The notes under the pieces were generated by a model, which saw only the letters and a list, made by a program, of their open reading frames with translations, was not told where the DNA came from and did no database searches. Shown piece after piece: positions 1-32,000 of a stretch of 32,000 bases of DNA; position 1 is the stretch's first letter, and each line of letters opens with the position of its first letter. The stretch comes from Candidatus Saccharimonadota bacterium. GTDB lineage: Bacteria > Patescibacteriota > Gracilibacteria > Absconditabacterales > Absconditicoccaceae. Both the position numbers and the translations under genes were made by a program. The stretch is taken from contig CP006913.1 of NCBI GenBank assembly GCA_000503875.1, forward strand, positions 90,001 to 122,000, written 5' to 3'.

Positions 1-867
1 CAAAGTTTTTGCTCCATATTTAAGTCAGGCTCTCGCCAGTTTCTTTGCCAATACCTCAACAACAGATTCTTGAAATTCATAAGCAATCTCACAAATCAGA
101 TCTTCTGTCAGCGCTATATTTTGTTGTTCAAAATTTTTTAATAAGATGGAAACTTGGCTTTTCATTCACGAAAAACTAAAATCAAAGGATTCTTTCGCAA
201 GAAAAATTCTTTTAAAACTAACGGCATTATCCAATATATCGCATTTGTTACATTCTACATATTCCAGAAGTTTTGTTTTATGCTTTTGAGCCATTTCTCC
301 AATCCAAACTCATCCTGGGTAAGGACCGCCAAGCATCCTTGAAACCTTATCAAAACATTCACCAGCTGCATCGTCCAATGTTTTTCCTAGATGTTCTATG
401 TGAAATTTATTTTGGTCCTCCGTGATAAAATATAAATCATTATGTCCACCACTTGCTGTGAGGACAACCATAGGAAATTCAATATCAGTTTTGTTTCTTT
501 CCAAAAGTAAGGAAAAAATATGTCCATAAATATGGTTCACTTCGTATAAAGGTTTATTATATCGCTTGGCAAGAGTCGCTCCGACAGCTTTCCCTACCAC
601 GAGTGATCCAGGAAGTCCTGGGTGGGTAGTTACACTGATAGTATCCACATTCTCGATTTCTCCCCACCCAACTGCGTGTAACACTCACAATATTTTTTCG
701 CTATGTAATCTCGAAGCAATTTCAGGCATTACTCAACCATATTTTTGATGATCAGGCACTTGAGAGTAAGCGAGGAGTTGGTCAACAGAAAAATGATCTC
801 CATCAAAGGAAATTATCCCAATCGATGTATCGTCACAGCTTGTTTCTATTGCCAAGGTTTTGATCAT
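1..867 (-). CDS. tsaD: tRNA N6-adenosine threonylcarbamoyltransferase TsaD (Kae1/Gcp family), 3' end runs off the window
   Basis: ATG at 865-867 (minus). Translation MIKTLAIETSCDDTSIGII...YG(G)VMPEIASRLH...TASGGHNDLY...DDAAGECFDKVSRMLGGPYPG(G) is typical TsaD. Track ORF 310..684 is the middle piece, and several in-frame TGA sit at conserved Gly positions. The frame stays open to position 1. Confidence 0.9.
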
Positions 868-927
868 GGTATTAATGTTTATATATTGAAACATATTAAG
901 TTGATTTTTATTTATTCGCTCCGCTGG

Positions 928-1014
928 GATACTTTTTGCTACCAGGTCAAAAAGTAACCAAAAACCCCTCGTGAGCTGTTACATTTTCTTAACCTAAAAA
1001 TGTAAACGCTCACC
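928..1014 (-). repeat. Two-hairpin repeat element, copy 1 (87 nt), downstream of nrdG in sense orientation
   Basis: The reverse complement, ggtgagcgtttacatttttaggttaagaaaatgtaacagctcacgaggggtttttggttactttttgacctggtagcaaaaagtatc, is near-identical to 13244..13371 on the plus strand. Hairpin 1 is GTGAGCGTTTACATTTT / AAAATGTAACAGCTCAC. Hairpin 2 is GGTTACTTTTTG / CAAAAAGTA(T/A)C. Confidence 0.6.
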
Positions 1015-1033
1015 TATTTTAATAGTTTGTTTC

Positions 1034-1744
1034 TTACTTCCTAATTCCAACATGATCTACATATTTTTCTGCGATGATTTTAAATTCTTCGAGTTCTTCT
1101 TCATTAAACGGTTGTCCTCAGAAATTAGGATCCAAGGTATTCCCTCCGATATAGTTTTGTAAATAATAATGTTTTGCTCCTCTAATAAAATGCGCCATAC
1201 TTTCGATATCATCAGCGGTATGCATACCTTTGATTACGGTTGTTCTATATTCATATTCTATATTTCCTTCCAATAACATCTGTAATAACTTTTGATAGCT
1301 CAAGAAAAATTCTGGTTTTTGTGGTAAACCAACAGCATCGTCATAACTATAAATAGCATGTTTGAGATCGATCGCAACATAATCCAAAATTCCATCCTGA
1401 ATCATTCTTTTGACTATTTTATAATCTCTTCCGTTTGTATCGAGTTTTACTTTAAATCCCATAGATTTAATTCTTTTTGCAACATCATACAAATCTGTCT
1501 GCAATGTAGGTTCTCAACCACAAATACTAACTCCATCCAAAAATCATTTTCTGCTTTCCAAAAAATTGAAAAAAACTTCTTCAGGAATAAGGTCATTTTT
1601 GAAGAGCATCATTTTTTCTGGAAGCACACATTCTGGATTATGACAAAAATGACAACGAAAATTACATCATTGCGTAAAAATAACACAAGCTATGTGTCAT
1701 GGATAGTCGACTAATGTTGATTTTTGGATTCAGGCTATATGCAT
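1034..1744 (-). CDS. nrdG: Anaerobic ribonucleoside-triphosphate reductase activating protein (radical SAM)
   Basis: ATG at 1742-1744, TAA at 1034-1036, 236 aa with TGA=Gly. N-terminus MHIA(G)IQKSTLVDYP(G)HIACVIFTQ(G)CNFRCHFCHNPE carries the CxxxCxxC radical-SAM cluster motif. FLDGVSICG(G)EPT follows. Track ORF 1118..1504 is the central piece. Confidence 0.9.
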
Positions 1745-1795
1745 AATTTCTTTGTAAGGATTGCTATGTTATCTTCAATCTAAAATCCTGTTTTT

Positions 1796-2470
1796 TTATA
1801 TAGAGCTTGCTATGATTTTTATCCTTTCGATAGCTTTATCAATATTTCTCATTCCCTGTCCTACAGGATAGAAGGTAGGATATACCTTATATTTTATTCA
1901 ATGTATTTCAAATTGTTCATAATCATTTTTTTGATAGTCAGAAACCTTGATATTTTTTCTCAGCAACAAAGAACTTACTTGATTCCCAAACGAAACAATA
2001 TACGTAGGTTGAACCAAAGCAATTTCTTTTTCAATTGCTTCCAGATATGCTTTAAAAATATCATTGTGTAAGGGTCTTGCATCGATCTGAGTACACTTTG
2101 CAAGATTGGTCACATATATTTTATTCTGACGTAATTCTTGGTATACCTGCTGACAAAATTCGGTAGTCCATTCATTGGGTTTATAGCTTTGTATGGCGGT
2201 GAACGCTGGCTTGGAGATGGCACCTACGGCAAGAAACAATTTCCAGATATTCTTGGTTCCAAGCCAGGCTGCACGCAGTCATTTTCGATCTTTCTGTGCT
2301 GAAATATTTCTTCCTGTGGGATTCATAAAGAGAAAAAGAATATTTGGTTTTTTGATACACCCCGCTCCATACACAGGAGCAAGTGTTTTCTCTCCATATT
2401 TCATTTGAAGTGTATCAAAAAGAGGGAACAAATCAGGTAGTTGTAGAGCGTTCATAAAAAGAACAATCAA
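1796..2470 (-). CDS. Uracil-DNA glycosylase superfamily protein (family not resolved)
   Basis: Track ORFs 2279..2470 and 1898..2239 join in frame through TGA, and the frame extends past TGA at 1898-1900 to TAA at 1796-1798. FLFMNPTGRN resembles the G(M/I)NPG active-site motif of SMUG/MUG-type UDGs. VTNLAKC and a C-terminal FYPVGQG also fit. The start could be ATG 2470 or ATG 2455 (MNALQLP...). Confidence 0.5.
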
Positions 2471-2472
2471 AT

Positions 2473-2536: not shown

Positions 2537-2797
2537 TTACGCTGCACATGCACATCATACAAATTTTACTTCTTGATAGTTATTTACCAAATCATACGCG
2601 TTATTTGGTGTTGAAAATTGTCTAACAAATTCTGAATTAGCAGTTTTGCTTTCGTCGAAGTATTTGCGTGAATAGAATTCTGATTTTTTTCCTGTGTTAT
2701 AATGGCTAACAGGTCTAAGATATCCCATTACTCTAGTATATACTTGGCATTGAGTTCTTTGAATTTCTTTTCCTTCTTTGTTGGTGAATGTTTGCAT
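2537..2797 (-). CDS. Stand-alone glycyl-radical C-terminal module of class III RNR (NrdD C-terminal fragment, 86 aa)
   Basis: Own ATG at 2795-2797. Translation MQTFTNKEGKEIQRTQCQVYTRVMGYLRPVSHYNTGKKSEFYSRKYF contains the NrdD glycyl-radical signature (RVxGY..RPV...N.GK..E). It reads through TGA 2555-2557 to TAA 2537-2539. It is in a different frame from nrdD and separated from it by TAA plus 34 nt. Confidence 0.75.
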
Positions 2798-2831
2798 GAT
2801 GGCGTATGTATAATAAAAATAAAAAGAGGTT

Positions 2832-5039
2832 TTATTGAACTTGTTTTTCTTTCAGAATTCTGAGTTTTTCAGGATCTGAAGTATGTTTTTGTCTGGTTTC
2901 CATATTAAATTCATCTCCTACATATCCAAGTTCTTTATCACATTTTGGACAATAATCATGTTCTCCTACAATATATCCATGTTTTGGACAAATAGAGAAA
3001 ACAGGAGAAATAGTAATGTATGGAAGTTGATAATTTTCAATAACTTTTTTCACCAACATTTTGCATGCTTCTGCGTCTGATAATCTTTCTCCCATATATA
3101 AGTGGAGAACAGTTCATCACGTATATTTACATTGTAATTCATTTTGTAGTTCTAATGCTTCGAATGGATCATCTGTATATCATACAGGGATTTGTGTCGA
3201 ATTCGTATAATAAGGTGCTTCATCGGTTCACGCTTGAATAATCTTAGGAAGTTGTTTTTTGTCTTCTCTAGCAAATCTGTACGTTGTACCTTCTGCTGGA
3301 GTAGCTTCAAGATTATAAAGATTTCCAGTTTCTTCTTGATATTCTTTGAGAACTTCTCTCATATAGTCTAAGACTTCGAGAGCAAGAATTTTTCCACCCT
3401 CTGTTGTCATATCTTCTTTTCCACCCGTAAAATTAAGTACTGCCTCATTCATTCCATTCAAACCAATAGTTGAGAAGTGGTTTCTGAAAGAATGAAGGTA
3501 TCTTTTGGTATACGGATAGAATCCACTATCCAACCATTTTGTAATTTCTTTTCTTTTTAATTCAAGAGAAATTTTTGCTAAATCCATTAATCTTTTGACT
3601 TGTTTCTTAAATCATTCAAGATCATTTTTGAAATTATATCCAACTCTTGCTAAATTTAAGGTAACAACTCCAATTGATCATGTCATTTCAGAAGAACCAA
3701 AGAGACCACCTCATCTTTTTTCTAATTGAGTAAGATCAAGTTGTAATCTACAACACATAGATCTAACTGCTCAAGGCTTATATGCATTAGGATTTTCTAC
3801 TTTAGTTAGCTTTCCATTTTCATCTTTAACGGTCTTAAATTGAGACCCTACAAAGTTTTGAAAATAAGGGATTCCGTATTTAGCAGTCATTTCAAACAAA
3901 AGATTGATATCTGGATCATCCCATGGAAAATCTTCTGTGATATTATATGTAGGAATAGGAAAGGTAAATACTGCACCAGTCCAATCTCCTTTAGTATAAA
4001 TTTCAATCAATACTCTATTGAGAAGTTTCATTTCTTCTTCAAGTTCGCTGAATTTTTTTGGATAATATCCGTGTTCTATACCACCAAGCATCAAAGATTT
4101 CTCTTTAAGATCTTCAGGGCATTTCCAATCCAATGTAATATTGGTAAATGGAGTTTGTGTTCCCCAACGTGAAGGAACATTAAGACCAAAGATAAAATTC
4201 TGCATTTGTTGTGATACATATTTATGTACTTTGAAATCAACATGAGCTTTTCTTGCCTCTGGAGAATCAAATTGTACCTTAAGTTCATCAAGTTCTTCTT
4301 CTATACTAACTTTATATTTATGTACAAAAGGAGCAAGATATGTGTCAAATGATGAGAATGCTTGTGCACCGGCCCATTCATTTTGCAAGGTTCCCAAAAA
4401 GTTAATCATTTGGTTTACTGCAGATTGAAGATTGTTAGGTGGAGCAGATTGTACTCTGTTATCCAATCCATTAAATCCCTCTTCCAAAAGTTGTCTCAGT
4501 GACCATCCAGCACAATATCCAGAAAACATATCTAAATCGTGAATATGATAATCTCCATTTCTATGAGCACCTCAAACTTCTTCTGGATATACATGAGAAA
4601 GCCAATAATTGGCAACTACTTTCCCAGCAACATTAAGAATCAAACCCCCCAAAGAATATCCTTGATTTGAGTTTGCGTTCACTCTCCAATCAGTTTGTTG
4701 AAGATATTCGTCCATAGTTTTACCTACTTCTACTACCACTTTTCTAGCTTCTCTAGATTGTGCTCTTTTTTCGCGGTACAAGATATATGCTTTGGCAACC
4801 GTATCATGACCTTCTTTGATCAAAACTTGTTCAACAGCATCTTGAATCATTTCTACATCAGGAATTTCGTTTCCTGCTTTTGTAAGAACGGTTTCGATAA
4901 TTTTGTCAGTGATGGTTTCTACATTACTATAGTCCGTTCCACCAACAGATTGAATAGAAAGTTTAATGGCATTTTCTATTTTGCTTCTATCAAAAGAAAC
5001 GATAGCTCCATTACGTTTTTTTACTTTATAAATTGCCAT
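2832..5039 (-). CDS. nrdD: Anaerobic ribonucleoside-triphosphate reductase, large body (ATP-cone to Zn-ribbon), lacking the glycyl-radical tail
   Basis: 735 aa with TGA=Gly. Track ORFs 4572..5039, 3771..4529, 3228..3587 and 2832..3095 are all in one frame. Motifs seen: ATP-cone N-terminus (MAIYKVKKRNGAIVSFDRSKIENAI), GDYHIHDLD, MCCRLQLD, (G)GLFGSSEMT(G)SIGVVTLN, (G)GTVLHLY, and Zn-ribbon ICPKHGYIVGEHDYCPKC. It ends at a genuine TAA (2832-2834). Confidence 0.92.
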
Positions 5040-5118: not shown

Positions 5119-5340
5119 TATAATATAAAAAATCAATGGAAACTTTATTCGAACAATTTTGGGTCCGATAGCTTTTAGTTAGCAGGATGCCAAAAAATCA
5201 AGGGCTTTTTTAACATTTTTTTGTCAATTTTGTGGGAAGATTGTTGGGGATAGTAATATAAAAAATTCAGATTTTTGTATTCTCTTGTATCTTTTTATTA
5301 AATTCCTATATAAAGCTTATTTTAAATGCTGATTTTTTCT

Positions 5341-5823
5341 ATGAAAACATCACTCAAAACAGGAATGAGTTTCTGAGTAACCTCAGGTGTTATAACTACA
5401 TTATGACTTTTGGTAGGACTTGCTTCATGAAGTGAAATGAGAGCGGTTGTGATAGCAGGTATTTTGACTATAGCAATTGCTGATTCTTTTTCTGATGCTC
5501 TCGGTATTCACATTTCCCAAGAATCTAATCCAAAAAATTCTCATAAGCAAGTTTGGGAATCCACTATTTCTACATTTTTTACTAAATTTCTTTTTGCCTG
5601 TACATTTATTCTTCCCGTTATCTTTTTTCCTTTGTTTTGGGCTGTAGTAGTTAGCTGTGTTTGGGGATTATTCGTGATTACGTTAGTGAGTTATAAAATA
5701 GCAGTTTCTCAAAATAAGAAACCACGACACAGTGTATTTGAACACGTTATGATAACTGTAGTAGTAATTGCGCTTACTTATATTACAGGGTTATGAATTA
5801 ATAAACTTTTTGTTGCAAACTAA
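5341..5823 (+). CDS. VIT1/CCC1-family (iron/manganese) membrane transporter, short form
   Basis: MKTSLKTGMSF(G)VTSGVITTL(G)LLVGLAS(G)SE...IAIADSFSDALG, followed by hydrophobic helices. Track ORF 5437..5796 is extended upstream through three TGA and downstream through TGA 5794-5796 to TAA 5821-5823. Confidence 0.7.
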
Positions 5824-5884: not shown

Positions 5885-6568
5885 ATGTTCAATACTATGG
5901 TTTATTTTCTAATAACATCGAATATGCTTTGACATATAGTTTCTTATCAAATGCTTAACCATGATGTTGTAGAAATAAAAATTCAATTACCACAGATAAT
6001 TTCTTACAAACCAGGGCAATGGGCTTTGATTGATTATAAAGTTTCTGAGCAACCGCTTAAGAGGGCATACTCTATTGCTGAGTACAAGATTGTTGATCAG
6101 AACTGTGAAATTACATTGGCGATTAAATTACTTGAAGGTTCAAAAAGCTGATGATATCTCAAAATCGCCAAGCAATGAGACGATATAGAAGTCGTAGGAA
6201 TTTTCTGACATTTTGTATTGCAAGACAACGAAAATCCAAAAGTATTTATCGGAACATGAACAGGATTGGTACCGTTGATAGCTATGGCAAACATGACCAC
6301 GTCAGACAAAAAATTATATTTTTCAGTATCACATAAATCTGATCTTTTTTATATAGATCGTATACAAAACATCGCGAACCTTGAGTCACATATCCATGTT
6401 TCAAGAGAAGAAGTAGAAGGCTGCGAACCAGGAAGAATAGATCTCACAGCAGCATCTTTTCCCGAAAACACAGAATTCTATATCTGTTGAAATCCTGCAG
6501 TAGTTACCGCCTTCGCAGAAACGCTTCAATCTAGATGATATCAAAAAATTTATACAGAGAAATATTAG
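5885..6568 (+). CDS. Ferredoxin-NADP reductase-like FAD/NAD(P)-binding oxidoreductase
   Basis: Track ORFs 5951..6151 and 6266..6490 join in frame with TGA=Gly. Motifs seen: RAYSIA (RxYS FAD motif), FIGT(G)TGLVPL (NAD(P) GxGxG-type motif) and YIC(G)NPAVV. TAG at 6566-6568. The start is uncertain (5885, 5897 or 5951). Confidence 0.65.
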
Positions 6569-6600: not shown

Positions 6601-8817
6601 ATGGATATCAAAAGCCTAGAAAATTATTTAAATTATAAACCGCATATAGGAAATCCACAGTTTATCGTGGATGAACTTATCGAAAAAGCAAAAGAATATC
6701 TTCCTGCAGAACAGCTTCCAAAAATTCAAAAAGCATATGAATATGCCAGGCAAGCACATGGATGACAACTAAGATTATCTTGAGAAGAGTATATAGTTCA
6801 TCCACTCAAGGCAACTGTATTTCTTATGGAAATCAAACCCGATCTTCAGACAATTCAAGCAAGTATTTTGCATGATGTAATCGAAGACACTCCAATAACT
6901 GAAAAAGATATCAAAGAAAACTTTTGAGAAGAAGTTGCTACTCTTTGTGAAGGGATGGTAAAAGTCTCAAAAATTAAATATAAATGAGAGGATAGACATT
7001 TGGAAACAATCAAAAAAACATTTCTTGCAATGGCAACCGATTTGAGAGTAATTTTTATTAAGCTTTGTGATCGTATTCATAATATACAAACACTTCAATA
7101 TCATCCAAATCCTTCAAAAATCCAGAAAATTGCCCAAGAAACTATGAAAATCTATGTGCCTATTGCCAAAAGATTATGATTATACTACTACCAATTATAT
7201 TTGGAAAATTGATCATTTAAACATATTGATGAACCAGCATTCAATAAAATTTTTAATTATCTCAAAAAATATTTTTGAGGAGGAGAAAAATATACAAATA
7301 AAGGAATAGATTTGATTACTGATCTTCTTCAAAAAGAATGAGTAGAAGATTTTATAGTAAAAGGAAGAATAAAAAGTCCTTATAGAGTTCACGAAAAAAT
7401 AGAAAAAAAATATCATACAGATGATCTTGGTGAAGTTATGGATCTTTTGGCATTTAGAGTAATTACCAAATCGGTCGCTGATTGTTATATGATTTTGGGA
7501 GTCGTACATAAGCATTTCACACCGTTGATCAAAAAGATCAAAGATTATATCGCTGTCCCAAAATCAAATGGTTATCAAAGTATTCATACAACAGTTTTAG
7601 GAATGTTTGCATTTCCTATAGAGATTCAAATCAGAACTCATGAAATGGATGAGGTAGCAGAATATTGAGTAGCTGCTCATTTTGCGTATAGCGAACACAA
7701 TAAACCTATGGTGGTATCCCAACATCAAGGCGAATGGATCAAAAGACTTCAAGAAATTGTCCATAGTTACAAAGAATCTGACGATAAGGAAAAATTTAAA
7801 GATGAATTAAAAATAGAGGTATTGGATAAACGTATTTATTTGTATACACCAAAAGGAGATGTCATAGAATTGCCGCATGGAAGTTCTGTTTTGGATTTCG
7901 CATTCTTTATTCACTCTGATATCGGTTTGAGATTTAAAAATGCTATTGTTAATGGTCAGATAAAACCAATAAGTTATAGACCAAAAACAGGTGATATTAT
8001 TAGTATAAATACCTTTAAAAATAAGTATTCTGCAAACAAACATCGATTTGATTTTCTTCATACTATGGGAGCAAAATCCAATCTCAATAAACATCTCAAA
8101 AACGAACAAAAGACAGATCTTATCAAAAAAGTTAGTACAGAATTAAATATTCATTTGGAAAAAAACAATCTTCCGAGATTAGACGCTGCCCAAGATAAAA
8201 TATCAAAACTTTATTCAAAATCAGAATTAGAAAAGAAATTTATTGAAATTTTAGATAGAAAAACAAGCTATAGTCAGCTTATTAAATCAGCATATCCTAA
8301 AGAACGAGAGCAGCGAAACAAACAAACAAATCCAACATTTTTTCAATCACAACTTCAGCAGATTAAAGATGCTGCAATAGCAAGAATTCTAATTGATGGG
8401 GATCATCTTTCCAATTATAGTTTATGCAAAGAATGTAATCCTTCAATTCATGATAAAATTATTGCAAAATCTTGAAAAGATGGAATCAAAGTACATAAGG
8501 TTGAATGTAAATCGCTTAAAACAATTTCTTTTGAGAAACTTTTGGAAGCACACTGGGAATGACAAGAAATCAATAATTATGGAGTTTCTGTGGAATTAAA
8601 AATATTTAATAAATATTCAAATTTGCTTGAGGTAATGACTATTTTGGGAGATCTTCATATTGTAATTTTACAGGTATCTATCAAAAATAATGGTGATGGA
8701 ACAAGTAGTATATTTTTGGAATCTGAATTCAAAAATCCTGCTCGTATAGCTTTCTTATTAAATAGCTTGAAAAAATACGATAATTCAATAAAGGTAAACA
8801 AAAGAAAAATATCATAA
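6601..8817 (+). CDS. rel: Bifunctional (p)ppGpp synthetase/hydrolase, long RSH (HD + synthetase + TGS + ACT)
   Basis: 738 aa with TGA=Gly. AHG(G)QLRLS(G)EEYIVHPL and HDVIEDT mark the HD hydrolase domain. GRIKSPYRVHEK, PKSNGYQSIHTTV and IEIQIRTHEMDEVAEY(G)VAAH mark the synthetase domain. IYLYTPKGDVIELPHGSSVLDFAF marks the TGS domain. The tail is ACT-like. Track ORFs 7438.., 7708.. and 8590..8817 are in frame. Confidence 0.92.
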
Positions 8818-21074: not shown

Positions 21075-21659
21075 TTAATAATTCTCGCATTTAACAATGA
21101 AGTATTCTTCTTCATGACCACAGCTTGGACAAGCTTTAGGTGGTTTCTTACCTTTGTGAGTATGACCACATTTGGTACAAATCCATTCAATTTCTTCTGA
21201 TTTATTTCTTATTGTTTCGTTCTTTATTTGCGTATGTAATTTCTGATATCTTTCTGCATGATGCATTTCTGCATTCATAATAGCTTTAATTCTAACAGCT
21301 ACTTCTGGGTATCATTCTTCCAGAGCAACTTTTGCAAACATCGGATATAATTGTTCAAATTCGTGAGTTTCTCCAGCTACTGCATAACCAAGATTTTCCA
21401 AAGTAGATCAAAGTTTTACAAAAACCTCTGTTTCTACAGCTTGGATTTCCATATCCAATCATTCTTTTTCTTTGATAGCCAAAAACATTTTCATAAACCG
21501 AGAAGCGTGCTCCTTTTCTTGTTCAGCTGTTTCTTCAAAGATAGTTGCAATCTGAAGATATCATTCTTTTCTCGCTTTGCTTGCAAACATGGTATAGCGA
21601 TTTCTTGCTTGAGATTCACCTACAAATGCTTGTGCTAAATTAACTAATGTTTTTTTCAT
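21075..21659 (-). CDS. rbr: Rubrerythrin
   Basis: 194 aa. N-terminal ferritin-like diiron domain (GESQARNRYTMFA...EQEKEHA...AGETHEF...MNAEMHHAERY) and C-terminal rubredoxin-type CTKCGH...CPSCGH. Four in-frame TGA. Confidence 0.9.
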
Positions 21660-22485: not shown

Positions 22486-22547
22486 TTATTTTTCTTTTCT
22501 TCTTATCTTTAATTGTTTTTTTCTAATTTCAATCCACACGGCAATTT

Positions 22548-23591: not shown

Positions 23592-23726
23592 TAAATCTGA
23601 ATATAAGATAAATATTTTTTGTAGTGTAGTGTTTTTGTGGTTGTTTTCCAATGTTTTTTTCCCATTTGCAAATTTTCTTCAAAACCATACACTATCATCG
23701 TTTATTCAATTACTTATCAACAACAA

Positions 23727-25248: not shown

Positions 25249-27693
25249 ATGAAAAATTTTCATCATTGGATACTTACCAGTATTGCTATAGCATGATTAG
25301 TAATTACTAGTACACTTTTTACCCAAGCCCAGCAAACAACGGAAGGCGAAATTCAATTAGAAATTCAGGCAGGAAATTCTTGTTGTGTATACTGAACTTC
25401 AGTAGTATTTTGAGGAAAGGATATTAGCTTCGGTATTACAGAATTTTCTGGAGATTTTTTGAGCTATAATGGAACAAATACATGGGGTTGTGTAGATATG
25501 TTATGAACAGAGACATGACGAGCAATGTATATACAAATGTCATGAGATATGGAAAATCAAAATGGAAATAAAATAAATTCAGGGAATGTAAAAATAAGTT
25601 TTGATGATACTACTTTAATCTGATGAGATTGTCAATATACAGTAAATGGTGGAATTGATGTATCATTAAATACAGGAGTAACTTTAGTAGAAAAAGCTGA
25701 AATTGCATGAAATTATGGAAAAATATGTGAATTAGGAACAACAAATGTCGAACTAAAAGTAGTAACAAATACATGACAAGCACCAGGAAATTACCAATGA
25801 ACCTTAGTTATAGATTTACCAAGTTTTGCAAATGGTACCTGTGATGCAGAATTGATAGGAACATTCTATGATGCAGAAACAGATTGATTGGCTTATATAG
25901 GAAATATGTGATCAGTAGGAGTTACTTCTAATAGTTGATCATTCTCATACAAACCAGGAGAGCAAATAACATTCAAAGTATGAACAGTAACTTTAGGAAA
26001 TCCAGTTATTCCATCAGCGAACGGAAGTGTATTTGTGACAGATTTATTTGGAGTAGCTAGGACAGAAATAACAGATCCTAATGTAATCGAAATAGGTAGA
26101 TTATTGCAATGATTAGATACTGATAATAATCCAGAAAATGGAATCGTAATTGAATCAAGCATAGCATCACAATTTACAGAAAACAACAACGTAACAGCTT
26201 TGGATGTTAGCGCAAAACTTACTGCACTTAGTAAACCAATCAAAACAGCAAAACAAGTTGTGCAACATTTAGAAAAAACCGCAGAAGAAAAATTAAGTGA
26301 AGATGTAAATATTTGATACTCATCAGTTGAAATTATTCCTTGATGATCATATGAAGAACCCCAAATTGTTATAGATAGTTGAAATAATACGTATATTGCA
26401 TGAACTTTTGAACATGAAAATGCTTTAGCTGGAATGGTTTCTTTTTGATCAATAGAATTATATAATAACTGACAAAGTCGTGATGGATATATAGGTAAAA
26501 AGAATGTAAGTGGAGATTGGATTTGGGTAAAAAAATATGGATCAGATAGTTCTGATAATCCCAATTCTGTAAAAATAGATGCTATGGGTAATATATATAT
26601 ATGATGAAGTGTGTGATGATCTTTTGGTTGAACGGGCGTTTTTGGGCAAATAGTATTGAGCGGAGTTGTTGCCAATGAGTTGTGATGGTATAAAGAGCAC
26701 CCATTTGTTGCAAAGTTGGATAATGATGGGAATTGGTTGTGGGTAACTACAGGTTGATATGAAATATCTGCAATAGAAGTAGATCAAGTATGAAATAGTT
26801 ATGTAGTAGGAAATTATTATTCAACATGAACTTTTTGATCGATAGTATTTCCAAGTGAATGAGAATATACTTCATCTCTTTTTATATGAAAAATAGATAG
26901 TAATGGGAATTGGTTGTGGGTAAAAAAAATGGATACAAGTGCAGGTATAAGAATAGATACTCAAGGAAATATATATGTAATATGATCTTTTTGATGATCA
27001 GGAACTTTTGGAACAACGATATTAACTAGTGTTGCGCATTCTACTTTTGTAGCAAAAATAAGCTCATCTGGAGATTGGCTACGAGCTACCCAATCCCAAA
27101 CTTCAACAGATGTTAATTGTTCTTCTTCACTAAATTCATCAGCAATAGATCAACAATGAAATATTTATCTTCTGTGAACTTTATGATCTTATTGTGAAGA
27201 CCCAATATATTTTGGAGATACTATGTTAACTGGAGATGTTGCTGGTTATACTAGTTTTATTGCAAAGATGGATAGTAATGGAAATCGAGTAACCGCAAAA
27301 AAATGAATAGGATGAGTAGGCTTGGCAATAGACAAAAATTGATTTATTTATACAACAGCATCATTCGATGGTTCTATTTCCCTTTGATCTGCTCAACTTA
27401 CTAACAGATGGTCTTCTTTTTCATATAATGATATCGTAGGATATGTCGTGAAATTAAATCAGTCTCTTGAACCAGTTTCTGCTAATTTGTATGAATGAAT
27501 GGGAGTTTCATCAATAGTTGCTGACAGTTCAGATGATGTTTATCTTATAGGAACTATGTCTGACGTTAATTTATCTCTATGAGATGCTGTTTTGACATGA
27601 GCTCGAAATTCAAGTCTCCTATATAAAATGCCATTTCGAGATAAAGAAAGTATTTTGTTTTATCAAACAACACCTCCTGAACGAGCTAATTAA
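25249..27693 (+). CDS. Large secreted protein: signal peptide + unknown Cys-containing beta-rich N-domain + middle domain + ~6 SBBP-type beta-propeller repeats (814 aa)
   Basis: MKNFHHWILTSIAIA(G)LVITSTLFTQAQQ looks like a signal peptide. Repeats recur about every 60 aa: YIGKKNVSGDWIWVKK, FVAKLDNDGNWLWVTT, FIGKIDSNGNWLWVKK, FVAKISSSGDWLRAT, FIAKMDSNGNRV, YVVKLNQSLEPV. Each is followed by D..GN.Y..G motifs. I counted about 48 in-frame TGA, so no standard-code ORF is visible. TAA at 27691-27693. Confidence 0.8.
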
Positions 27694-27745: not shown

Positions 27746-27746
27746 T

Positions 27747-28241
27747 TTACATCTTTTTTACATTATTCTTTTTTATTAATTTATCTGTAAACAATATCCC
27801 CTCCAAGTGGTCCATTTCGTGTTGAACAATAACCGCGTTGAAATCCTTCAGTTTCTTTTTTTGCTTATTTCATTTTATATCCAAATATTCTACAGTTAAT
27901 GATTTATATCTTTTTACTTTTCCCAAAATATCAGGTAGAGAAATGCAAGCTTCTTCTCAAATAATAGTATCTTTAGAAAATTCTTTAATTTCAGGATTTA
28001 TCATAATTGTTTCTGCCAAAAGAGCTTCTTTAGTTTTTTTCATATCTCGTTGAGTTGTTGCAATTATACGAATATTTTTCCCCACTTGAGGAGCGGCAAG
28101 ACCAACACCATCATGTTTTCGCATCAATTTGATCAAATCTTGGCAAAATGTCTTTATTTCCGGTGTAATTTCATCAACAAATTCTGATTTTGATCTTAAG
28201 ATAGGATTGCGATCTCAAGTTTGGATTATATATTTTTGCAT
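27747..28241 (-). CDS. def: Peptide deformylase
   Basis: 164 aa. Motif 1 GVGLAAPQVG, motif 2 (G)EEACISLP (an EGCLS variant), and motif 3 QHEMDHLEG. Three in-frame TGA. Confidence 0.9.
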
Positions 28242-28396: not shown

Positions 28397-28486
28397 GGAG
28401 AGATGGCAGAGCGGTTGAACGCGACAGTCTTGAAAACTGTTGTCCGGGCAACTGGACCGTGGGTTCGAATCCCACTCTCTCCGCCA
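28397..28486 (+). tRNA. tRNA-Ser, anticodon UGA (reads UCN), class II with long variable arm, CCA encoded
   Basis: Acceptor GGAGAGA/TCTCTCC, anticodon stem ACAGT/ACTGT with loop CTTGAAA, variable arm GTCCGGGCAACTGGAC, T-arm GTGGG-TTCGAAT-CCCAC, G73, CCA. It closely resembles bacterial tRNA-Ser. Confidence 0.93.
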
Positions 28487-28504
28487 TTTATATTACAACT
28501 TCGT

Positions 28505-29590
28505 ATGACAAGTAAAAAAATTCCTACCGTTAAATTTTTGTTATCATTAGGTTTTATTTCTTTGTTTACCTTTGTAATTGCATCACCAGACCTTTTCCCA
28601 AAAGCAGAGCAACAAATTGTTGTTAGTTCAAGCTTTGTGTGATATAATGATGAAATCTCTTCAGATATTACTATAGATATGATTACTATAGATGAAGCAA
28701 GTGATGCTGAAGTTGGAGTTCTCCATTATGTGGTACAACCAGGTGATGTATTGAGTAAAATTGCTAGTACATTTGGTACTACAGTTTCTAAAATACAAAA
28801 AGTTAATAAATTAAGTTGACCAATTAAACCCGGTCAAAAGCTTATTATTGCAAATGAAGACGTAGGTTTCTTGTATACTATGCCAGAAACTATCAATATA
28901 AAAATATTTACCAATAAATATAATTTGAACACAGAAGAATTTATGTCATTAAACTATATCCAAGACGAATCAGAGATGTTATATGAAGAACAGGATGTCT
29001 TTGTTAATATGACAAATGAACAAGCATATGATAATGGTCTATTAGAAAGACCAAAACCAGTAGTTATTATAAAACCAAAAGTATCATATAAACCAGTAAT
29101 TAATAAACCACAATGAAATAATTCAAGGACAACTTCTTCTTCATCAACAAGTACATCTAAGAAATCAAGTATAATTTCTCAATGGGTATACAAAAAAGAT
29201 ATAAAGAACTGATTCTATGCATGATATTGTACATGGTATGCAGCTATTATATCTCCAGAAATCTTCCCATATATAGAAGAAAATAAACAAGAAAGACCAT
29301 TTTGAGGAAACGCAAATCAACGATGTGATAATGCAGATAAAGCTGGTTTAAGAGTAGTATGGAATTCTACAAAGAATCCTGTAAAACCTTGAGCAGGTGC
29401 ATTGGTAGTGTATAAACAGGGTTGACCTAGTTATCGTTCTTATGGACACGTAGGTAAAGTTAAGGAAGTAGATTCTGACGCAGGAACATTTATTCTTACA
29501 GAAATGAATACAGCAGGTAAATTTATTGTAACTCAACGTAAGGATAGTATAGATAATGATAATATTAAATGTTATATTTATTCTAAATAA
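28505..29590 (+). CDS. LysM + CHAP domain peptidoglycan hydrolase (secreted/anchored)
   Basis: N-terminal anchor KFLLSLGFISLFTFVIA. LysM domain HYVVQPGDVLSKIASTFGTTVSKIQKVNKLS(G)PIKPGQKLII. Ser/Thr linker. CHAP-like catalytic Cys (G)YCTWYAA and His YGHVGKV. TAA at 29588-29590. Confidence 0.8.
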
Positions 29591-29604
29591 TATAAGAAAT
29601 ATAG

Positions 29605-29640
29605 AAAAGCCTGAGCAAAAACTCGGGTTTTTCTTTTTCT
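29605..29640 (+). terminator. Intrinsic terminator
   Basis: AAAAGCCTGAG-caaaaa-CTCGGGTTTTT: a short stem with one G.U pair, then a T-rich tract. Confidence 0.55.
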
Positions 29641-29738
29641 TCAAGCAAATATTCTTCTCTTGAAAATCTGCTCTTTTTTCATACAGTAGTCGAACACATA
29701 TCAATAGGTATGCCATTTTACTAATAGATAATAATAGT

Positions 29739-32000
29739 ATGCAAGCAATAAATCACAATTACTTAAATTCCGGAGGTGTTAGATTTTCATCATCTAAATT
29801 TTCTTCTAATAAAATTTCTCATAATCTTCCAAAAAATTGGAAAAAGACTGGAGGGTTAATTATAGGATGAATACTTCTTATTTTTGTTTTTTGGTTCACC
29901 AAAAATGTTGTTCAAGGACTACCAGATATTTCAGATATCAATGATATGGTTTTTTCAGAATCTACTATTATCCAAGATAGAAATTGAAAAGAATTATATA
30001 AATTATACGAGGAAAATAGGGAATATGTTCCATTTTCTGGTATCTCTCAAAATATGATCAATGCCATCGTTGCGATGGAAGACCAACGTTATTGGGAGCA
30101 TAGCGGACTTGATCCAATGGGTATATTAAGAGCATGAATAAATAATGTATTGCGCCCAGGCGGAGGTATGCAAGGAGCATCAACTATTTCTCAACAGCTT
30201 CTCAAAAATCTTTTGTTAAATAAAGATTTTAAAAGAGAATCATTTCAAGAAAAAGTTGTAAGAAAATTAAGAGAAATACTTCTCATAGGAAAATTAAATA
30301 ACGTATTAGAAGATCAAATATACAAAGAACAACCATCGATAGGAAAAAATGAACTTCATAAAGAAATGAAAGATAAGGTTCTTGAATTATATCTGAATTA
30401 TATTGCTTTTTGAAATAATTCTTTTGGAGTAGAAGCTGCCTCAAAGACCTATTTTAGTAAATCAGCAAAAGACTTGGATGTATTAGAAGCTTCTGTTCTT
30501 GCTTCAATACCAAAGAGTCCAACTATTTATAATCCATATAGAAATAGAGGAAAAAATATGGGATTGCTTTCTATTGTAGATCAAAATGGAGCACAAGCTG
30601 CAGCAACATGAACTCTTTTGGAACAAGTACTTGCCAAAATGGCTCAATGATTAGAAAGTGTAGAAATATCAAAAGATGGTGGCTTTACAAAATCATTGGA
30701 AGCTATCTCTTCATTTGTGATAACAGAATGAACAAACAACTATACTATAACATATACAATATGAAGAAAAGATTTTGCTTTGATGAGAATGTACGAAGAT
30801 GATTATATTACTCAAAATGAATTAAAACAAGCATTTTTAGAATGATTAACATACGAACTTCGTAGTAATAAAGTAGAAATGTTAGCGCCACATTTTGTTC
30901 AATGGGTCATTGAAGAATTAGAAAAAAAATATGATAAAGATACTTTATTTAAGGGAGGTATTATTATCAAAACAACGCTTGATTTAGAACAACAAGTACT
31001 TGCAGAAACATCTCTTGCTAATAATTTAGCAGTTCTTCAAGAAAATGGAGCAAATAATTCATCTATGATTTATTTGGATTCAATAAATGGTGATGTATTA
31101 GCTTATGTAGGTTCTATTAATTACTTTGATGAAAAAATCCAAGGACAAAATGATATGGTAAGAAGACCAAGACAATCAGGGTCTGCTATTAAACCATTTA
31201 TTTACGCGCTTGGTTTTCAGTTACTTCCTTTGACATTGGATACACCAATGTTTGATATTCCATTTAAAATAGGAAGAGATGAACCAAACAACGCTGATGG
31301 AAAATTTGAATGATTATTACCGCTTAAATATGCATTAGCACATAGTAGAAATATTCCAGCTACCAAAATGATTCTTGCATTATGATGAGAAACTGTAGCA
31401 AAACCATTTTTAAGTGATTTGTGATTGGTAGGGGTACAAGATTCTGTAGAATATTGATATACATTAGCATTGGGAGCTGCAGAAGTCACTATGTTGGATT
31501 TAGCTAATGCTTATGCTCATCTATCTACAAATCAACCAGCAGAAATAAATCCTATTTTAGAAATCAGATCAAGAGATGGTTCTTTAATTTATCAAAGAGA
31601 AGATAAAAAACAGGAAGAAGTTATTCCTTGAGGAATTAGATATCTATTATGGAATATTCTTTCAGAACCATCAAATAGATTGGCAGGATGGGTATCTAAA
31701 TTTAATGTTAAATGATTATCATTGGCATTAAAGTCAGGAACATCTAATGTAAAAACGGATAAAGGAAATCGTCCAAGAGATGGTTGGATGGCTGTATATA
31801 ATTGAAGTAAAGTTGCCTTATTTTGGGCAGGTAATGCAGATTGAACAGCCATGAATAGAAATGCTTATGGATGAACAATTCATGCAAATCCTATGAAAAG
31901 TTTTTTCACTTCACTTATGAAAAATAATTATATAACCAATGATGCAGTCAAATCTGTTGATGTAACAAGTGTTGATATTTCAAAGATATCAGGTAAATTA
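29739..32000 (+). CDS. Class A penicillin-binding protein (PBP1A-type transglycosylase/transpeptidase), 3' end runs off the window
   Basis: TM anchor (G)ILLIFVFWF. GT51 motifs AMEDQRYWEHSGLD, GASTISQQL and RKLREILL. Transpeptidase motifs RQSGSAIKPFIY (SxxK) and SRN (HSRNIPA). Many in-frame TGA. Track ORFs 30150.. and 30879.. are in frame, and the frame is open to 32000. Confidence 0.9.

What the first reader, a model, noticed from the sequence alone, without database searches (positions are those of the whole stretch)
1..32000. UGA is decoded as glycine across the window (table 25; Gracilibacteria/Absconditabacteria-type CPR genome)
Every conserved gene is shattered by in-frame TGA under the standard code but becomes full length when TGA is read through. 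Where I can align a TGA to an invariant family motif, the residue is Gly.
- ABC Walker A GPS-G-SGKST: TGA 16403-16405, minus strand.
- ThrRS CK-G-PHV: 10025-10027.
- Rel AHG-G-Q: 6763-6765.
- HflX G3 DTI-G-F: 24534-24536.
- NrdG CG-G-EPT: 1514-1516, minus strand.
- TsaD YPG-G, NrdD T-G-SIGVV and NAD-binding GT-G-TG are further cases.
Genuine gene ends use TAA or TAG only. A PBP, a LysM-CHAP hydrolase and a GT4 transferase are present, which argues against a wall-less Mollicute. UGA=Gly is established for these CPR lineages, so the code is not new. It does determine every other call made here.
Basis: partly seen in the sequence, partly recalled or inferred. Interest (0 to 1): 0.7.

Follow-up and report, generated by a model that had tools for sequence, protein, structure and literature searches.

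The report
UGA=Gly code, plus CGA/CGG=Trp

Summary
All five cited TGA codons are where stated. With TGA read as sense, the window holds 27 genes at 90% coding density. These genes carry 217 in-frame TGA and no in-frame TAA or TAG.

UGA is Gly, not Trp:
- In 26 standard-code ThrRS relatives, window TGA aligns to GGN in 78% of pairs and never to TGG.
- In five close relatives, TGA and GGN swap freely (72 and 164 pairs), against 1 and 0 pairs with TGG.
- Against solved structures, TGA falls on Gly at every strongly conserved column.
- In relatives, the radical-bearing glycine of NrdD is itself encoded by TGA.

The window is 99.995–100% identical to contigs of candidate division SR1 bacterium RAAC1_SR1_1. 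Its 2013 genome paper already reports UGA=Gly and a tRNA(UCA), so the finding is already known.

One correction is needed, because table 25 is incomplete here. The 29 CGA and 4 CGG codons behave as Trp:
- Both ThrRS CGA codons sit on Trp columns that are TGG in every standard-code relative.
- CGA/CGG exchange with TGG in 27 codon pairs, and with Arg codons in only 2.

This reproduces a 2021 Codetta prediction.

A by-product: nrdD is split into a large ORF and a separate 86-aa glycyl-radical ORF, and the split is conserved in relatives.

The parts
1..894 (-). tsaD, 3' part cut by the window edge; 5 in-frame TGA, 1 CGA
   Evidence: Pfam TsaD, E=2e-47. In the PDB alignments, TGA falls on G at the GG-VPE, YPG-G and FSFS-G motifs.
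1034..1744 (-). nrdG, radical-SAM activase; 6 TGA, including 1514-1516 in CG-G-EPT
   Evidence: Pfam Radical_SAM and Fer4_12; codon confirmed; 72-89% identical syntenic copies in L027 and L087.
1796..2455 (-). UDG-superfamily gene; 2 TGA, 1 CGA
   Evidence: Pfam UDG. The CGA at column 57 is kept as CGA in L027 and L087.
2537..2797 (-). Small stand-alone ORF (86 aa) carrying the NrdD glycyl-radical motif TRVMGYLRPV and a C-terminal GCACAA tail
   Evidence: Pfam NRDD profile positions 531-562 of 562. It lies in a different frame from the large ORF, after a 34-nt spacer. The split is conserved in L027 and L087. The family has 450 members, and the best 120 are all 60-113 aa.
2832..5039 (-). nrdD large ORF (735 aa: ATP-cone plus catalytic barrel plus Zn ribbon), ending in TAA before the glycyl-radical domain; 9 TGA
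   Evidence: Pfam NRDD positions 2-529 of 562, E=1e-161, plus ATP-cone. TGA at 3678-3680 and the TGA TGA pair at 3114-3119 align to G and GG of T. maritima NrdD 4coi.
5326..5823 (+). VIT1-family membrane protein; 4 TGA, 1 CGA
   Evidence: Pfam VIT1.
5885..6568 (+). FNR-like oxidoreductase; 8 TGA, including GT-G-TG at 6257-6259; ends in TAG
   Evidence: Pfam FAD_binding_6.
6601..8817 (+). rel (RelA/SpoT); 11 TGA (6763-6765, 6781-6783, 7666-7668 and others) and 3 CGA (8044-8046 on a Trp column)
   Evidence: Pfam HD_4, RelA_SpoT and TGS. In PDB 6yxa and 7oiw, TGA falls on G at S-G-EPY, RL-G and EY-G-VAAH, and CGA 8044 falls on W. The same CGA aligns to TGG in L019 and L020.
9506..11407 (+). thrS; 7 TGA (10025, 10088, 10103 and 10262 on invariant Gly columns) and 2 CGA (10097-10099, 10736-10738, on Trp columns invariant across the standard-code relatives)
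   Evidence: The four TGA align to GGN in 26 of 26 standard-code relatives, and both CGA to TGG in 26 of 26. Of 18 conserved Arg columns, the window has AGA at 15 and CGT at 3, never CGA.
12588..13229 (+). UPF0029/IMPACT-family gene; 1 TGA
   Evidence: Pfam UPF0029 and DUF1949.
13407..14582 (-). MFS transporter; 5 TGA; ends in TAG
   Evidence: Pfam MFS_1.
14610..15824 (-). MacB-type ABC permease; 11 TGA, 2 CGA
   Evidence: Pfam MacB_PCD and FtsX.
15848..16528 (-). ABC ATPase; 9 TGA, including Walker A 16403-16405, signature 16091-16093 and Walker B-adjacent 16016-16018
   Evidence: PDB 5xu1 and MJ0796: TGA falls on G at 5 of 9 columns, all of the conserved ones. The protein is identical to the RAAC1_SR1_1 protein P0001 except at the X positions.
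16560..18410 (-). HlyD-like adaptor; 28 TGA, which is 67% of its Gly codons; Gly-rich tail R-G-L-G-V-G-G-G-G-G-G-F
   Evidence: Pfam HlyD_3.
18550..19206 (+). OmpR-type response regulator; 2 TGA; CGA at 19084-19086 in the EEV-W-G motif
   Evidence: Pfam. PDB residues at the CGA column are Y, or W one position away. The CGA aligns to TGG in L087.
19229..20452 (+). Histidine kinase; 6 TGA, 1 CGA
   Evidence: Pfam HisKA and HATPase_c. The CGA at column 83 aligns to TGG in L085.
21075..21659 (-). Rubrerythrin; 4 TGA; CGG at 21498-21500
   Evidence: Pfam. TGA falls on G at 3 of 4 columns in PDB alignments. The CGG aligns to TGG in L084 and L085 and to CGA in L087.
22509..23747 (-). PF00953 (MraY/WecA-type) glycosyl-phosphate transferase. 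The true start is probably downstream of 23747, because relatives align only from residue 39-62 onwards.
   Evidence: Pfam Glycos_transf_4.
23727..24866 (+). hflX; 7 TGA (24534-24536 in the G3 motif DTI-G-F); CGA at 24051-24053 and 24792-24794; CGG at 24270-24272
   Evidence: PDB 8vkw. In 120 Absconditabacteria homologues, the CGA columns are R/W only (78/42) and R/F/W (57/48/15), and the CGG column is mostly L/F/Y/I with 11 R. The protein equals RAAC1_SR1_1 P148_SR1C00001G0110.
25249..27693 (+). 814-aa secreted SBBP-type beta-propeller repeat protein; 48 TGA, 6 CGA (27082-27084 and 27286-27288 at the repeat Trp positions)
   Evidence: Pfam SBBP matches only with TGA=G and CGA=W (E=4e-9). It does not match with TGA=W and CGA=R, or with X at the TGA codons (CGA left as R). 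Repeats read GNWLWV / GDWL[CGA]A / GN[CGA]V. Three CGA align to TGG in L085.
27747..28241 (-). def (peptide deformylase); 3 TGA, 2 CGA
   Evidence: Pfam, E=7e-47; PDB alignments.
28397..28486 (+). tRNA-Ser(UGA anticodon), the only tRNA in the window. There is no tRNA(UCA) or tRNA(UCG) here.
   Evidence: ARAGORN; Rfam RF00005.
28505..29590 (+). LysM-CHAP peptidoglycan hydrolase; 8 TGA; CGA at 29321-29323 in GNANQ-W. The TGA at 29303-29305 is the single TGA that aligns to Trp in solved structures.
   Evidence: Pfam LysM and CHAP. PDB 2lrj and 2k3a, weak alignments (E about 0.01).
29736..32000 (+). Class A PBP (transglycosylase plus transpeptidase), cut by the window end; 19 TGA
   Evidence: Pfam Transgly and Transpeptidase; 75-77% identical copies in L084 and L087.

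Best explanation
The window is a chromosomal stretch of the published genome 'candidate division SR1 bacterium RAAC1_SR1_1' (Candidatus Absconditibacteriota, CPR). Its genes are written in a code with three departures from the standard one: UGA means glycine, and CGA and CGG mean tryptophan. Only UAA and UAG terminate.

Shown here at the codon level:
- TGA occupies Gly columns and exchanges freely with GGN among relatives.
- CGA/CGG occupy Trp or aromatic columns and exchange with TGG, not with AGR or CGY.

Inferred from the literature, because none of these lie in the window:
- UGA is read by a dedicated tRNA-Gly with anticodon UCA.
- Release factor 2 is dispensable or lost.
- CGA/CGG are read by a tRNA(UCG) carrying Trp identity elements.
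- Arg is left to AGA/AGG and CGU/CGC.

Low G+C content (32% here) is the presumed driver. UGA is the only A/U-rich way to write Gly, and CGN codons had become rare.
For: **Source.**
- The window is 99.995-100% identical to L081-L083.
- Its ABC and HflX proteins equal the NCBI RAAC1_SR1_1 records at every non-X residue.
- The taxonomy places the organism in Candidatus Absconditibacteriota.

**UGA = Gly.**
- *Standard-code ThrRS loci (26).* Window TGA aligns to GGN in 131 of 168 pairs (78%) and to TGG in 0. Window GGN aligns to GGN in 76% of pairs, and window TGG to TGG in 84%.
- *Recoded loci (49).* TGA aligns to TGA in 16% of pairs, GGN in 57% and TGG in 0%. Window GGN aligns to subject TGA in 12%, but window TGG does so in only 1%.
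- *Five close relatives, about 11,660 codon pairs.* Window TGA aligns to TGA 124, GGN 72, TGG 1. Window GGN aligns to TGA 164.
- *Solved structures from standard-code organisms.* TGA falls on G in 23 of 44 best-hit columns. This includes every strongly conserved motif: Walker A, ABC signature, DxxG, S-G-EPY, CR-G-PH and YPG-G.
- *Mini-Codetta on ThrRS.* Among 48 codon types, only TGA (G, 4 of 4) and CGA (W, 2 of 2) deviate to a non-conservative residue. ATA gave L at 2 of its 3 columns (I at 1), a conservative difference I attribute to noise.
- *NrdD radical glycine.* The glycine in RVM-G-Y is TGA in L027. It appears as 'W', a table-4 gene-calling artefact, in 18 of 120 relatives.
- *Composition.* With TGA as Gly, Gly is 7.4% and Trp 0.84%. 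With TGA as Trp, Trp would be 3.1%.
- *Pfam.* SBBP is recognised in the 814-aa protein only under G/W decoding.

**CGA/CGG = Trp.**
- Both ThrRS CGA codons align to TGG in 26 of 26 standard-code loci.
- At the 18 ThrRS columns where at least 90% of standard-code relatives have Arg, the window has none of its CGA.
- SR1-type relatives carry CGA only at the conserved Trp columns. More distant CPR relatives carry CGA/CGG only at the conserved Arg columns.
- In close relatives, CGA/CGG pair with TGG 27 times and with AGR/CGY 2 times. AGR and CGY pair with each other 9 times.
- Rel CGA 8044 aligns to W in B. subtilis Rel and to TGG in L019 and L020.
- HflX column 109 shows only R or W in 120 homologues.
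- Rubrerythrin CGG aligns to TGG twice.
- Usage is 30 (CGA) and 4 (CGG) per 10,000 codons, which matches the published range for the clade.

**Literature.**
- The RAAC1 genome uses UGA=Gly and has a tRNA(UCA) (PMC3812714).
- Absconditabacteria are predicted to read CGA/CGG as Trp, with consistent tRNAs (PMC8629427).
Against: - No decoding component lies in the window. There is no tRNA(UCA), tRNA(UCG), prfA or prfB, so the mechanism rests on the literature. I found no statement on RF2 for this genome.
- About half of the TGA columns fall on variable positions in distant homologues: N, E, S, Q and others.
- One TGA (29303-29305, CHAP 'x-GNA') aligns to Trp in three of the four weakly matching CHAP structures shown.
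- Only about 15 of the 33 CGA/CGG codons have positive Trp or aromatic support. Some are uninformative or mixed. Def column 41 aligns to W in a phage Def but to R in Leptospira Def. TsaD column 111 aligns to E or S. hyp3 column 110 CGA aligns to AGG in L085. HflX CGG column 182 is mostly Leu in relatives.
- Ambiguous (dual) decoding of CGA/CGG cannot be excluded from sequence alone. To my knowledge it has no experimental confirmation.
Confidence: 0.9

Rival explanations
1. Plain NCBI table 25: UGA=Gly and everything else standard, so CGA and CGG are arginine. The Trp-column matches would then be real Arg-for-Trp replacements.
For: - This is the code used for the public RAAC1_SR1_1 protein records, which show R at the HflX CGA/CGG positions.
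- A few CGA columns align to Arg or to variable residues. Examples are Def column 41 against Leptospira Def, and hyp3 column 110 aligning to AGG.
Against: - Both ThrRS CGA codons align to TGG in all 26 standard-code loci. None of the window's CGA falls on the 18 conserved Arg columns.
- CGA/CGG pair with TGG 27 times and with Arg codons twice. AGR and CGY never pair with TGG.
- Exclusive R/W alternation at a buried hydrophobic HflX position is not a plausible amino-acid substitution pattern.
- The repeat Trp positions of the SBBP protein carry CGA.
Confidence: 0.07
2. Table 4 (Mycoplasma/Spiroplasma-type): UGA is tryptophan.
For: - Many database proteins of relatives show W at these columns.
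- One TGA aligns to Trp in CHAP structures.
Against: - The W residues are gene-calling artefacts. The same columns are G in standard-code homologues.
- Window TGA never aligns to TGG in 168 pairs with standard-code relatives, and aligns to it once in 223 pairs with close relatives.
- Trp content would be 3.1%.
- W would sit in Walker A, in DxxG and at the NrdD radical glycine.
- Pfam SBBP is lost under W decoding.
- Peptidoglycan genes are present.
Confidence: 0.01
3. Standard code: the TGAs are real stops, from pseudogenes, sequencing errors, programmed readthrough or selenocysteine.
For: Under table 11 the genes do fragment. NCBI assembly GCA_003543185.1, from the same organism, was called that way.
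Against: - There are 217 in-frame TGA but no in-frame TAA or TAG.
- Profile matches run full length across the TGAs.
- The same TGA positions are conserved or replaced by GGN in relatives.
- The sequence is identical in three independent assemblies.
- TGA aligns to Gly, not Cys, and is far too frequent for Sec.
- Rfam finds no SECIS or other recoding element.
Confidence: 0.005

Closest known systems
NCBI translation table 25 (Candidate Division SR1 and Gracilibacteria code; Campbell et al. 2013, Rinke et al. 2013)
   Same: UGA is read as Gly and UAA/UAG are the only stops. The genome is AT-rich and belongs to SR1/Absconditabacteria. The source genome's own paper reports UGA=Gly and a tRNA(UCA).
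   Different: Table 25 keeps CGA and CGG as Arg. In this window they behave as Trp.
Absconditabacteria code inferred by Codetta (Shulgina & Eddy 2021, eLife; PMC8629427): UGA=Gly plus CGA and CGG=Trp
   Same: All three reassignments are reproduced here with independent evidence, namely codon-pair substitution patterns and invariant columns. Codon usage is 30 (CGA) and 4 (CGG) per 10,000, within the published range of <37 and <7.
   Different: Nothing found. I did not check whether RAAC1_SR1_1 itself was among the six species they analysed. Neither study has experimental confirmation.
NCBI translation table 4 (Mollicutes and some endosymbionts): UGA=Trp
   Same: UGA is a sense codon in a small, AT-rich genome. 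Gene callers often pick table 4 for this lineage.
   Different: The amino acid is Gly, not Trp. According to the literature, the decoder is an extra tRNA-Gly(UCA), not a tRNA-Trp(UCA). The organism has peptidoglycan genes.

Membership tests
Table 25 (SR1/Gracilibacteria code) | UGA encodes glycine | tested here: met
   Codon-level alignments to standard-code and recoded relatives, PDB alignments, and the NrdD radical glycine.
Table 25 (SR1/Gracilibacteria code) | UAA and UAG remain the only stop codons | tested here: met
   There are no in-frame TAA or TAG, against 217 in-frame TGA. The 25 complete genes end in TAA (23) or TAG (2). Gene ends coincide with the ends of Pfam profiles and PDB homologues.
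Table 25 (SR1/Gracilibacteria code) | All 61 standard sense codons keep their standard meaning | tested here: not met
   CGA falls on invariant Trp columns. CGA/CGG exchange with TGG and not with Arg codons.
Table 25 (SR1/Gracilibacteria code) | A tRNA-Gly with anticodon UCA in the genome | not testable with these tools
   The only tRNA in the window is tRNA-Ser(UGA). None of the 30 tRNAs in 80 related loci has anticodon UCA. The literature reports a tRNA(UCA) gene in RAAC1.
Table 25 (SR1/Gracilibacteria code) | Release factor 2 (prfB) absent | not testable with these tools
   The rest of the genome (CP006913) could not be read here. No statement about this genome was found in the papers available.
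Absconditabacteria three-change code (Codetta 2021) | CGA encodes tryptophan | tested here: met
   - ThrRS columns 198 and 411 are TGG in 26 of 26 standard-code relatives.
- Rel column 482 is W.
- 23 CGA-TGG pairs occur in close relatives.
Absconditabacteria three-change code (Codetta 2021) | CGG encodes tryptophan | tested here: inconclusive
   There are only 4 CGG codons.
- Rubrerythrin CGG aligns to TGG in two relatives and to CGA in one.
- PF00953 gene column 3 aligns to TGG.
- HflX column 182 is a hydrophobic column (L, F, Y, I).
- hyp3 column 97 aligns to AAG.
The evidence is supportive but thin. Three related loci carry CGG at a conserved ThrRS Trp column.
Absconditabacteria three-change code (Codetta 2021) | tRNA(UCG) and/or tRNA(CCG) with Trp identity elements; Arg decoded by tRNA(UCU) and tRNA(GCG) | not testable with these tools
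   These tRNAs are not in the window. They are reported for the clade in PMC8629427.
Table 4 (UGA=Trp) | UGA aligns to Trp columns and exchanges with UGG | tested here: not met
   TGA aligns to TGG in 0 of 168 and 1 of 223 pairs.
Candidatus Absconditibacteriota (SR1), genome RAAC1_SR1_1 | Sequence identity to the deposited genome or its proteins | tested here: met
   Two proteins are identical to NCBI RAAC1_SR1_1 records apart from the masked codons. The DNA is 99.995-100% identical to three assemblies of the same population. The nearest other ThrRS loci are SR1 and Absconditabacteria MAGs at 60-70% identity.

The most novel reading that the evidence does not exclude
On the genetic code, nothing novel remains open. 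The most novel reading my evidence does not exclude concerns a by-product: this lineage runs a two-piece class III ribonucleotide reductase.
- The 735-aa NrdD ends, with a real TAA, just after its Zn ribbon.
- The glycyl-radical domain is made as a separate 60-113-aa protein with a conserved C-terminal CxC tail.
- That small subunit could be an exchangeable radical-carrying subunit. This would be functionally akin to the GrcA/YfiD 'spare part' of pyruvate formate-lyase, except that here it would be obligatory.

I found no description of this arrangement in the searchable literature. That search was limited to one query.
Probability: 0.35. Interest if true: 0.55.

Novelty: already known. Interest (0 to 1): 0.25.

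Why it matters
The practical consequences matter more than any conceptual ones.

- **Wrong code, wrong genes.** With table 11, these genes shatter. NCBI assembly GCA_003543185.1, from the same organism, shows ThrRS and Rel in pieces. With table 4, 217 glycines become tryptophans, and domain recognition can fail. The SBBP repeats are an example.
- **Table 25 is still not correct here.** The 33 CGA/CGG codons are turned into Arg where Trp is meant. This affects the deposited RAAC1_SR1_1 proteins too. Every downstream call on this window should use UGA=Gly and CGA/CGG=Trp.
- **A testable prediction.** The CGA/CGG reassignment is so far a computational prediction. The window gives concrete targets for proteomic confirmation, such as ThrRS ...LAGAY-W-K... 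and Rel ...NKH-W-FDF....
- **Mixed database records.** Protein databases hold three different translations of this lineage. Columns that mix W with G, or R with W, are the signature to look for.

Tried and rejected
- **tRNA(UCA) or tRNA(UCG).** None in the window. None among the 30 tRNAs in the 80 related loci.
- **Locating the source contig.** A look-up through the deposited ABC protein P0001 found nothing on record. It worked with the TGA-free ORF 11915-12493.
- **The search of protein representatives.** It was never used.
- **Campbell et al. 2013 (PMC3619370).** Not held. Two other papers held no statement on RF2. RF2 loss therefore remains unchecked.
- **Rfam scan of the window.** Only the tRNA was found, with no recoding element.
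- **Synteny in the ThrRS loci.** It was poor beyond thrS. Codon-pair statistics for other genes needed four extra look-ups through HflX homologues.
- **NrdD against solved structures.** The structures are too distant for most of its TGA columns. Only the T. maritima alignment is informative.
- **Selenocysteine, pseudogenes, sequencing error.** Considered and rejected (see the rival explanations).
- **A 1-nt difference from L081/L082.** It lies at window 13336, in an intergenic T-run, and is irrelevant.

Full report
**Observation**

The window is AT-rich, at 32% G+C. Under the standard code, stop-to-stop ORFs of at least 100 codons cover 17.9 kb, and the longest is 381 codons (380 by the count). 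With TAA/TAG as the only stops, a clean, almost gap-free set of 27 genes appears. It covers 28,677 nt (89.6% coding) and 9,559 codons, of which 217 are in-frame TGA. All 25 complete genes end in TAA (23) or TAG (2).

Inside these genes, frame 0 contains 217 TGA but no TAA or TAG. The two other frames contain all three triplets, 140-348 times each. With TAA/TAG as stops, ORFs of at least 200 codons hold 10,171 codons. In 100 dinucleotide-preserving simulations the mean was 49 and the maximum 462.

I masked TGA as X and ran the products against Pfam. The matches are full length:
- TsaD, the NrdG radical-SAM activase, UDG, NrdD, VIT1 and an FNR-like protein.
- Rel, a double zinc ribbon protein, ThrRS and UPF0029.
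- MFS, a MacB permease, an ABC ATPase and HlyD.
- An OmpR-type regulator, a histidine kinase and rubrerythrin.
- PF00953, HflX, Def, LysM-CHAP and a class A PBP.

The five coordinates in the finding are each an in-frame TGA in the stated motif. The other named cases are also correct.

**Where the window comes from**

The ABC ATPase and HflX equal the NCBI proteins of 'candidate division SR1 bacterium RAAC1_SR1_1' at every unmasked residue. Both come from a contig of 1,177,760 bp.

A TGA-free ORF of the window was found on three assemblies:
- An ENA assembly of the Rifle sediment metagenome, 99.995% identical to the window.
- NCBI GCA_003543185.1, also 99.995% identical.
- A Logan assembly, 100% identical.

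The taxon belongs to Candidatus Absconditibacteriota. The nearest other thrS loci among GTDB species representatives are SR1/Absconditabacteria MAGs at 60-70% protein identity. Gracilibacteria and other Patescibacteria follow.

**Which amino acid is UGA?**

I aligned all window proteins, with X at TGA, to the 80 thrS loci using tblastn. I used table 4, which is conservative against Gly, and read off the aligned codons.

| Window codon | 26 loci with no in-frame TGA (standard code) | 49 recoded loci |
|---|---|---|
| TGA | GGN 131 of 168 (78%), TGG 0 | TGA 16%, GGN 57%, TGG 0% |
| GGN | GGN 76% | TGA 12% |
| TGG | TGG 84% | TGA 1% |

Four thrS TGA codons (10025, 10088, 10103, 10262) sit on columns that are Gly in 26 of 26 standard-code relatives.

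A per-codon tally over conserved ThrRS columns (a small Codetta) covered 48 codon types. Two deviated to a non-conservative residue: TGA to G (4 of 4) and CGA to W (2 of 2). ATA gave L at 2 of its 3 columns, a conservative difference I attribute to noise.

Five close relatives were reached through HflX homologues and one thrS locus. They gave about 11,660 codon pairs over 17 genes:
- Window TGA pairs with TGA 124 times, GGN 72 times and TGG once.
- Window GGN pairs with TGA 164 times.

I also aligned the products to solved structures from standard-code organisms.
- TGA falls on Gly in 23 of 44 best-hit columns.
- This includes every strongly conserved motif: Walker A GPS-G-SGKS, signature LSG-G-Q, DEPT-G-ALD, ThrRS CR-G-PH and GAYWR-G-D, Rel S-G-EPY and EY-G-VAAH, HflX DT-x-G-F, and TsaD YPG-G and FSFS-G.
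- The remaining columns are variable positions (N, E, S, Q and others).
- One TGA (29303-29305) aligns to Trp in weakly matching CHAP domains. That is the only counter-example.

Three further arguments support Gly.
- **Composition.** TGA as Gly gives 7.4% Gly and 0.84% Trp. TGA as Trp would give 3.1% Trp.
- **The NrdD radical glycine.** By the established chemistry of glycyl-radical enzymes this residue must be glycine. It is TGA in locus L027. It appears as 'W' in 18 of 120 database homologues, which is the artefact of gene calling with table 4. The same artefact explains the mixed W/G columns in the ABC and HflX families.
- **Domain recognition.** The 814-aa protein with 48 TGA is recognised by Pfam as SBBP beta-propeller repeats only when translated with G (and W for CGA). 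It is not recognised with W, or with X at the TGA codons.

UGA=Gly is therefore secure, and UGA=Trp is excluded.

While checking the literature I found that Shulgina & Eddy (eLife 2021, PMC8629427) predict a further change for Absconditabacteria. They infer that CGA and CGG are both reassigned from Arg to Trp, with consistent tRNAs. The window has 29 CGA and 4 CGG codons. That is 30 and 4 per 10,000, within their reported range.

ThrRS gives the cleanest test.
- Both window CGA codons (10097-10099 and 10736-10738) align to TGG in all 26 standard-code loci.
- Six ThrRS columns have Trp in at least 90% of the standard-code relatives. The window writes them TGG at four and CGA at two.
- Eighteen columns have Arg in at least 90% of those relatives. 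The window writes them AGA at 15 and CGT at 3, never CGA or CGG.
- Across the 80 loci the split is clean. SR1-type relatives have CGA (occasionally CGG) only at those Trp columns. More distant Gracilibacteria and other CPR have CGA/CGG only at those Arg columns.

The close-relative codon matrix agrees.

| Window codon | Pairs in close relatives |
|---|---|
| CGA | CGA 20, TGG 6, AGR 1, TGA 1 |
| CGG | CGG 2, TGG 3, CGA 1, other 3 |
| TGG | TGG 78, CGA 17, CGG 1 |
| AGR | AGR 260, CGY 3, CGA 1, TGG 0 |
| CGY | CGY 64, AGR 6, CGA/CGG 0 |

So CGA/CGG exchange with TGG in 27 pairs and with Arg codons in 2.

Individual sites point the same way:
- Rel 8044-8046 aligns to W in B. subtilis Rel and to TGG in two relatives.
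- The OmpR-type regulator's EEV-x-G position aligns to TGG in L087.
- CHAP GNANQ-x aligns to W in staphylococcal CHAP structures.
- In the SBBP repeats, GNWLWV alternates with GDWL[CGA]A and GN[CGA]V, and the CGA codons align to TGG in L085.
- HflX column 109 is a buried hydrophobic position. It shows only R (78) or W (42) in 120 Absconditabacteria proteins. Column 356 shows R, F and W.
- For CGG the best in-window case is rubrerythrin 21498-21500, which aligns to TGG in two relatives and to CGA in a third.

Several CGA/CGG sites are uninformative: Def columns 41 and 65, TsaD, MacB, and unassigned ORFs. One CGA pairs with AGG. Ambiguous decoding cannot be ruled out from sequence. The deposited RAAC1_SR1_1 proteins carry R at these codons, so the public annotation uses plain table 25.

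**Mechanism**

The codon-to-residue correspondences above are shown here. The rest is inferred from the papers, because the window holds only tRNA-Ser(UGA), and no UCA tRNA turned up in the related loci.
- A dedicated tRNA-Gly(UCA) reads UGA. The RAAC1 genome paper reports a tRNA(UCA) gene nearly identical to those of other SR1 genomes (PMC3812714).
- Termination is by RF1 at UAA/UAG. RF2 loss could not be checked.
- A tRNA(UCG) with Trp identity reads CGA and CGG, while tRNA(GCG) and tRNA(UCU) keep CGY and AGR for Arg (PMC8629427).
- Under this code, CGA-CGG-TGG is a fully synonymous mutational path. That fits the observed exchanges.

**Comparison and novelty**

The finding is a correct recognition of a known code in a known genome. 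The 2013 genome paper states that this organism reads UGA as glycine. The CGA/CGG=Trp layer is also published, as a computational inference. Here it is independently reproduced for this genome region from synonymous-exchange patterns. Nothing about the code is new. The value lies in correct annotation and in concrete targets for experimental confirmation.

**By-products**

- **Split nrdD.** The 735-aa ORF ends in TAA after the Zn ribbon. An 86-aa ORF follows in another frame, 34 nt downstream. It carries the glycyl-radical motif and a CxC tail. The arrangement is conserved in L027 and L087. The small ORF defines a family of at least 450 proteins, and the best 120 are all stand-alone at 60-113 aa. 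One literature query found no description.
- **HlyD-like gene.** It writes 67% of its glycines as TGA, including a run at its C-terminus.
- **HflX G2 motif.** In this lineage it reads LFATL-G-T, where characterised HflX proteins have D or E.
- **Gene calls elsewhere.** NCBI GCA_003543185.1 carries table-11 gene calls for the same organism, with every large gene in pieces.

Noticed in passing
window 2537-5039 (-); also L027 5193-7654 and L087 1-1170: nrdD is split. A 735-aa ORF (ATP-cone, barrel, Zn ribbon) ends in TAA. A separate 86-aa ORF follows in another frame, 34 nt downstream. It carries the glycyl-radical motif RVMGY and a conserved C-terminal CxC tail. The split is conserved in relatives. 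The small ORF has at least 450 homologues, and the best 120 are all 60-113 aa stand-alone proteins. One literature query found no description.
   Followed up: partly
window 25249-27693 (+): An 814-aa signal-peptide protein has 48 TGA and 6 CGA (12.5% Gly). Pfam finds no family when TGA is masked or read as Trp. It is recognised as SBBP beta-propeller repeats once translated with TGA=Gly and CGA=Trp. L085 holds a 48%-identical homologue.
   Followed up: partly
window 16560-18410 (-): The HlyD-like adaptor of the MacB/ABC operon writes 28 of its 42 glycines as TGA, the highest share in the window. It ends in a Gly-rich tail with 8 TGA in the last 15 codons (R-G-L-G-V-G-G-G-G-G-G-F-P-R-N). TGA share per gene ranges from 0 to 0.67.
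   Followed up: no
L082 (NCBI GCA_003543185.1, DPJE01000004.1), equal to window 1915-22495: A public MAG of the same organism (99.995% identical) carries table-11 gene calls. Rel is cut into at least five pieces, ThrRS into two, and NrdD is largely uncalled. Protein databases also hold table-4 (W) and table-25 (G, but R at CGA/CGG) versions of this lineage.
   Followed up: partly
window 24453-24455 (hflX column 243): The HflX G2/switch-I motif reads LFATL-[TGA]-T. Mycobacterial HflX has E at this position, and to my recollection E. coli HflX has D. All 120 Absconditabacteria homologues have G, or the artefactual W. This is a lineage-specific Gly at a normally acidic position.
   Followed up: partly
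window 29303-29305 (LysM-CHAP): This is the only TGA that aligns to Trp in solved structures (staphylococcal CHAP 'W-GNA..W'). The alignments are weak (E about 0.01). The neighbouring CGA at 29321-29323 aligns to the second Trp of that motif.
   Followed up: partly
window 22509-23747 (-) and 23727-24866 (+): The PF00953 gene, taken from its first ATG, would overlap the divergent hflX start by 21 nt. Relatives align only from residue 39-62 onwards. The real start is probably further in, near MNLLFSLIG, which leaves a normal divergent intergenic region.
   Followed up: no
window 13336: There is a single-base length difference (T4 versus T5) from assemblies L081 and L082. It lies in the intergenic space between the UPF0029 and MFS genes and is the only difference in 20.6 kb.
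   Followed up: yes
window 11456-11782 (-): A 108-aa TGA-free ORF lies between thrS and the next gene. Gene callers call it in the ENA, NCBI and Logan assemblies. It has no Pfam hit on record. I did not include it in my gene set.
   Followed up: no
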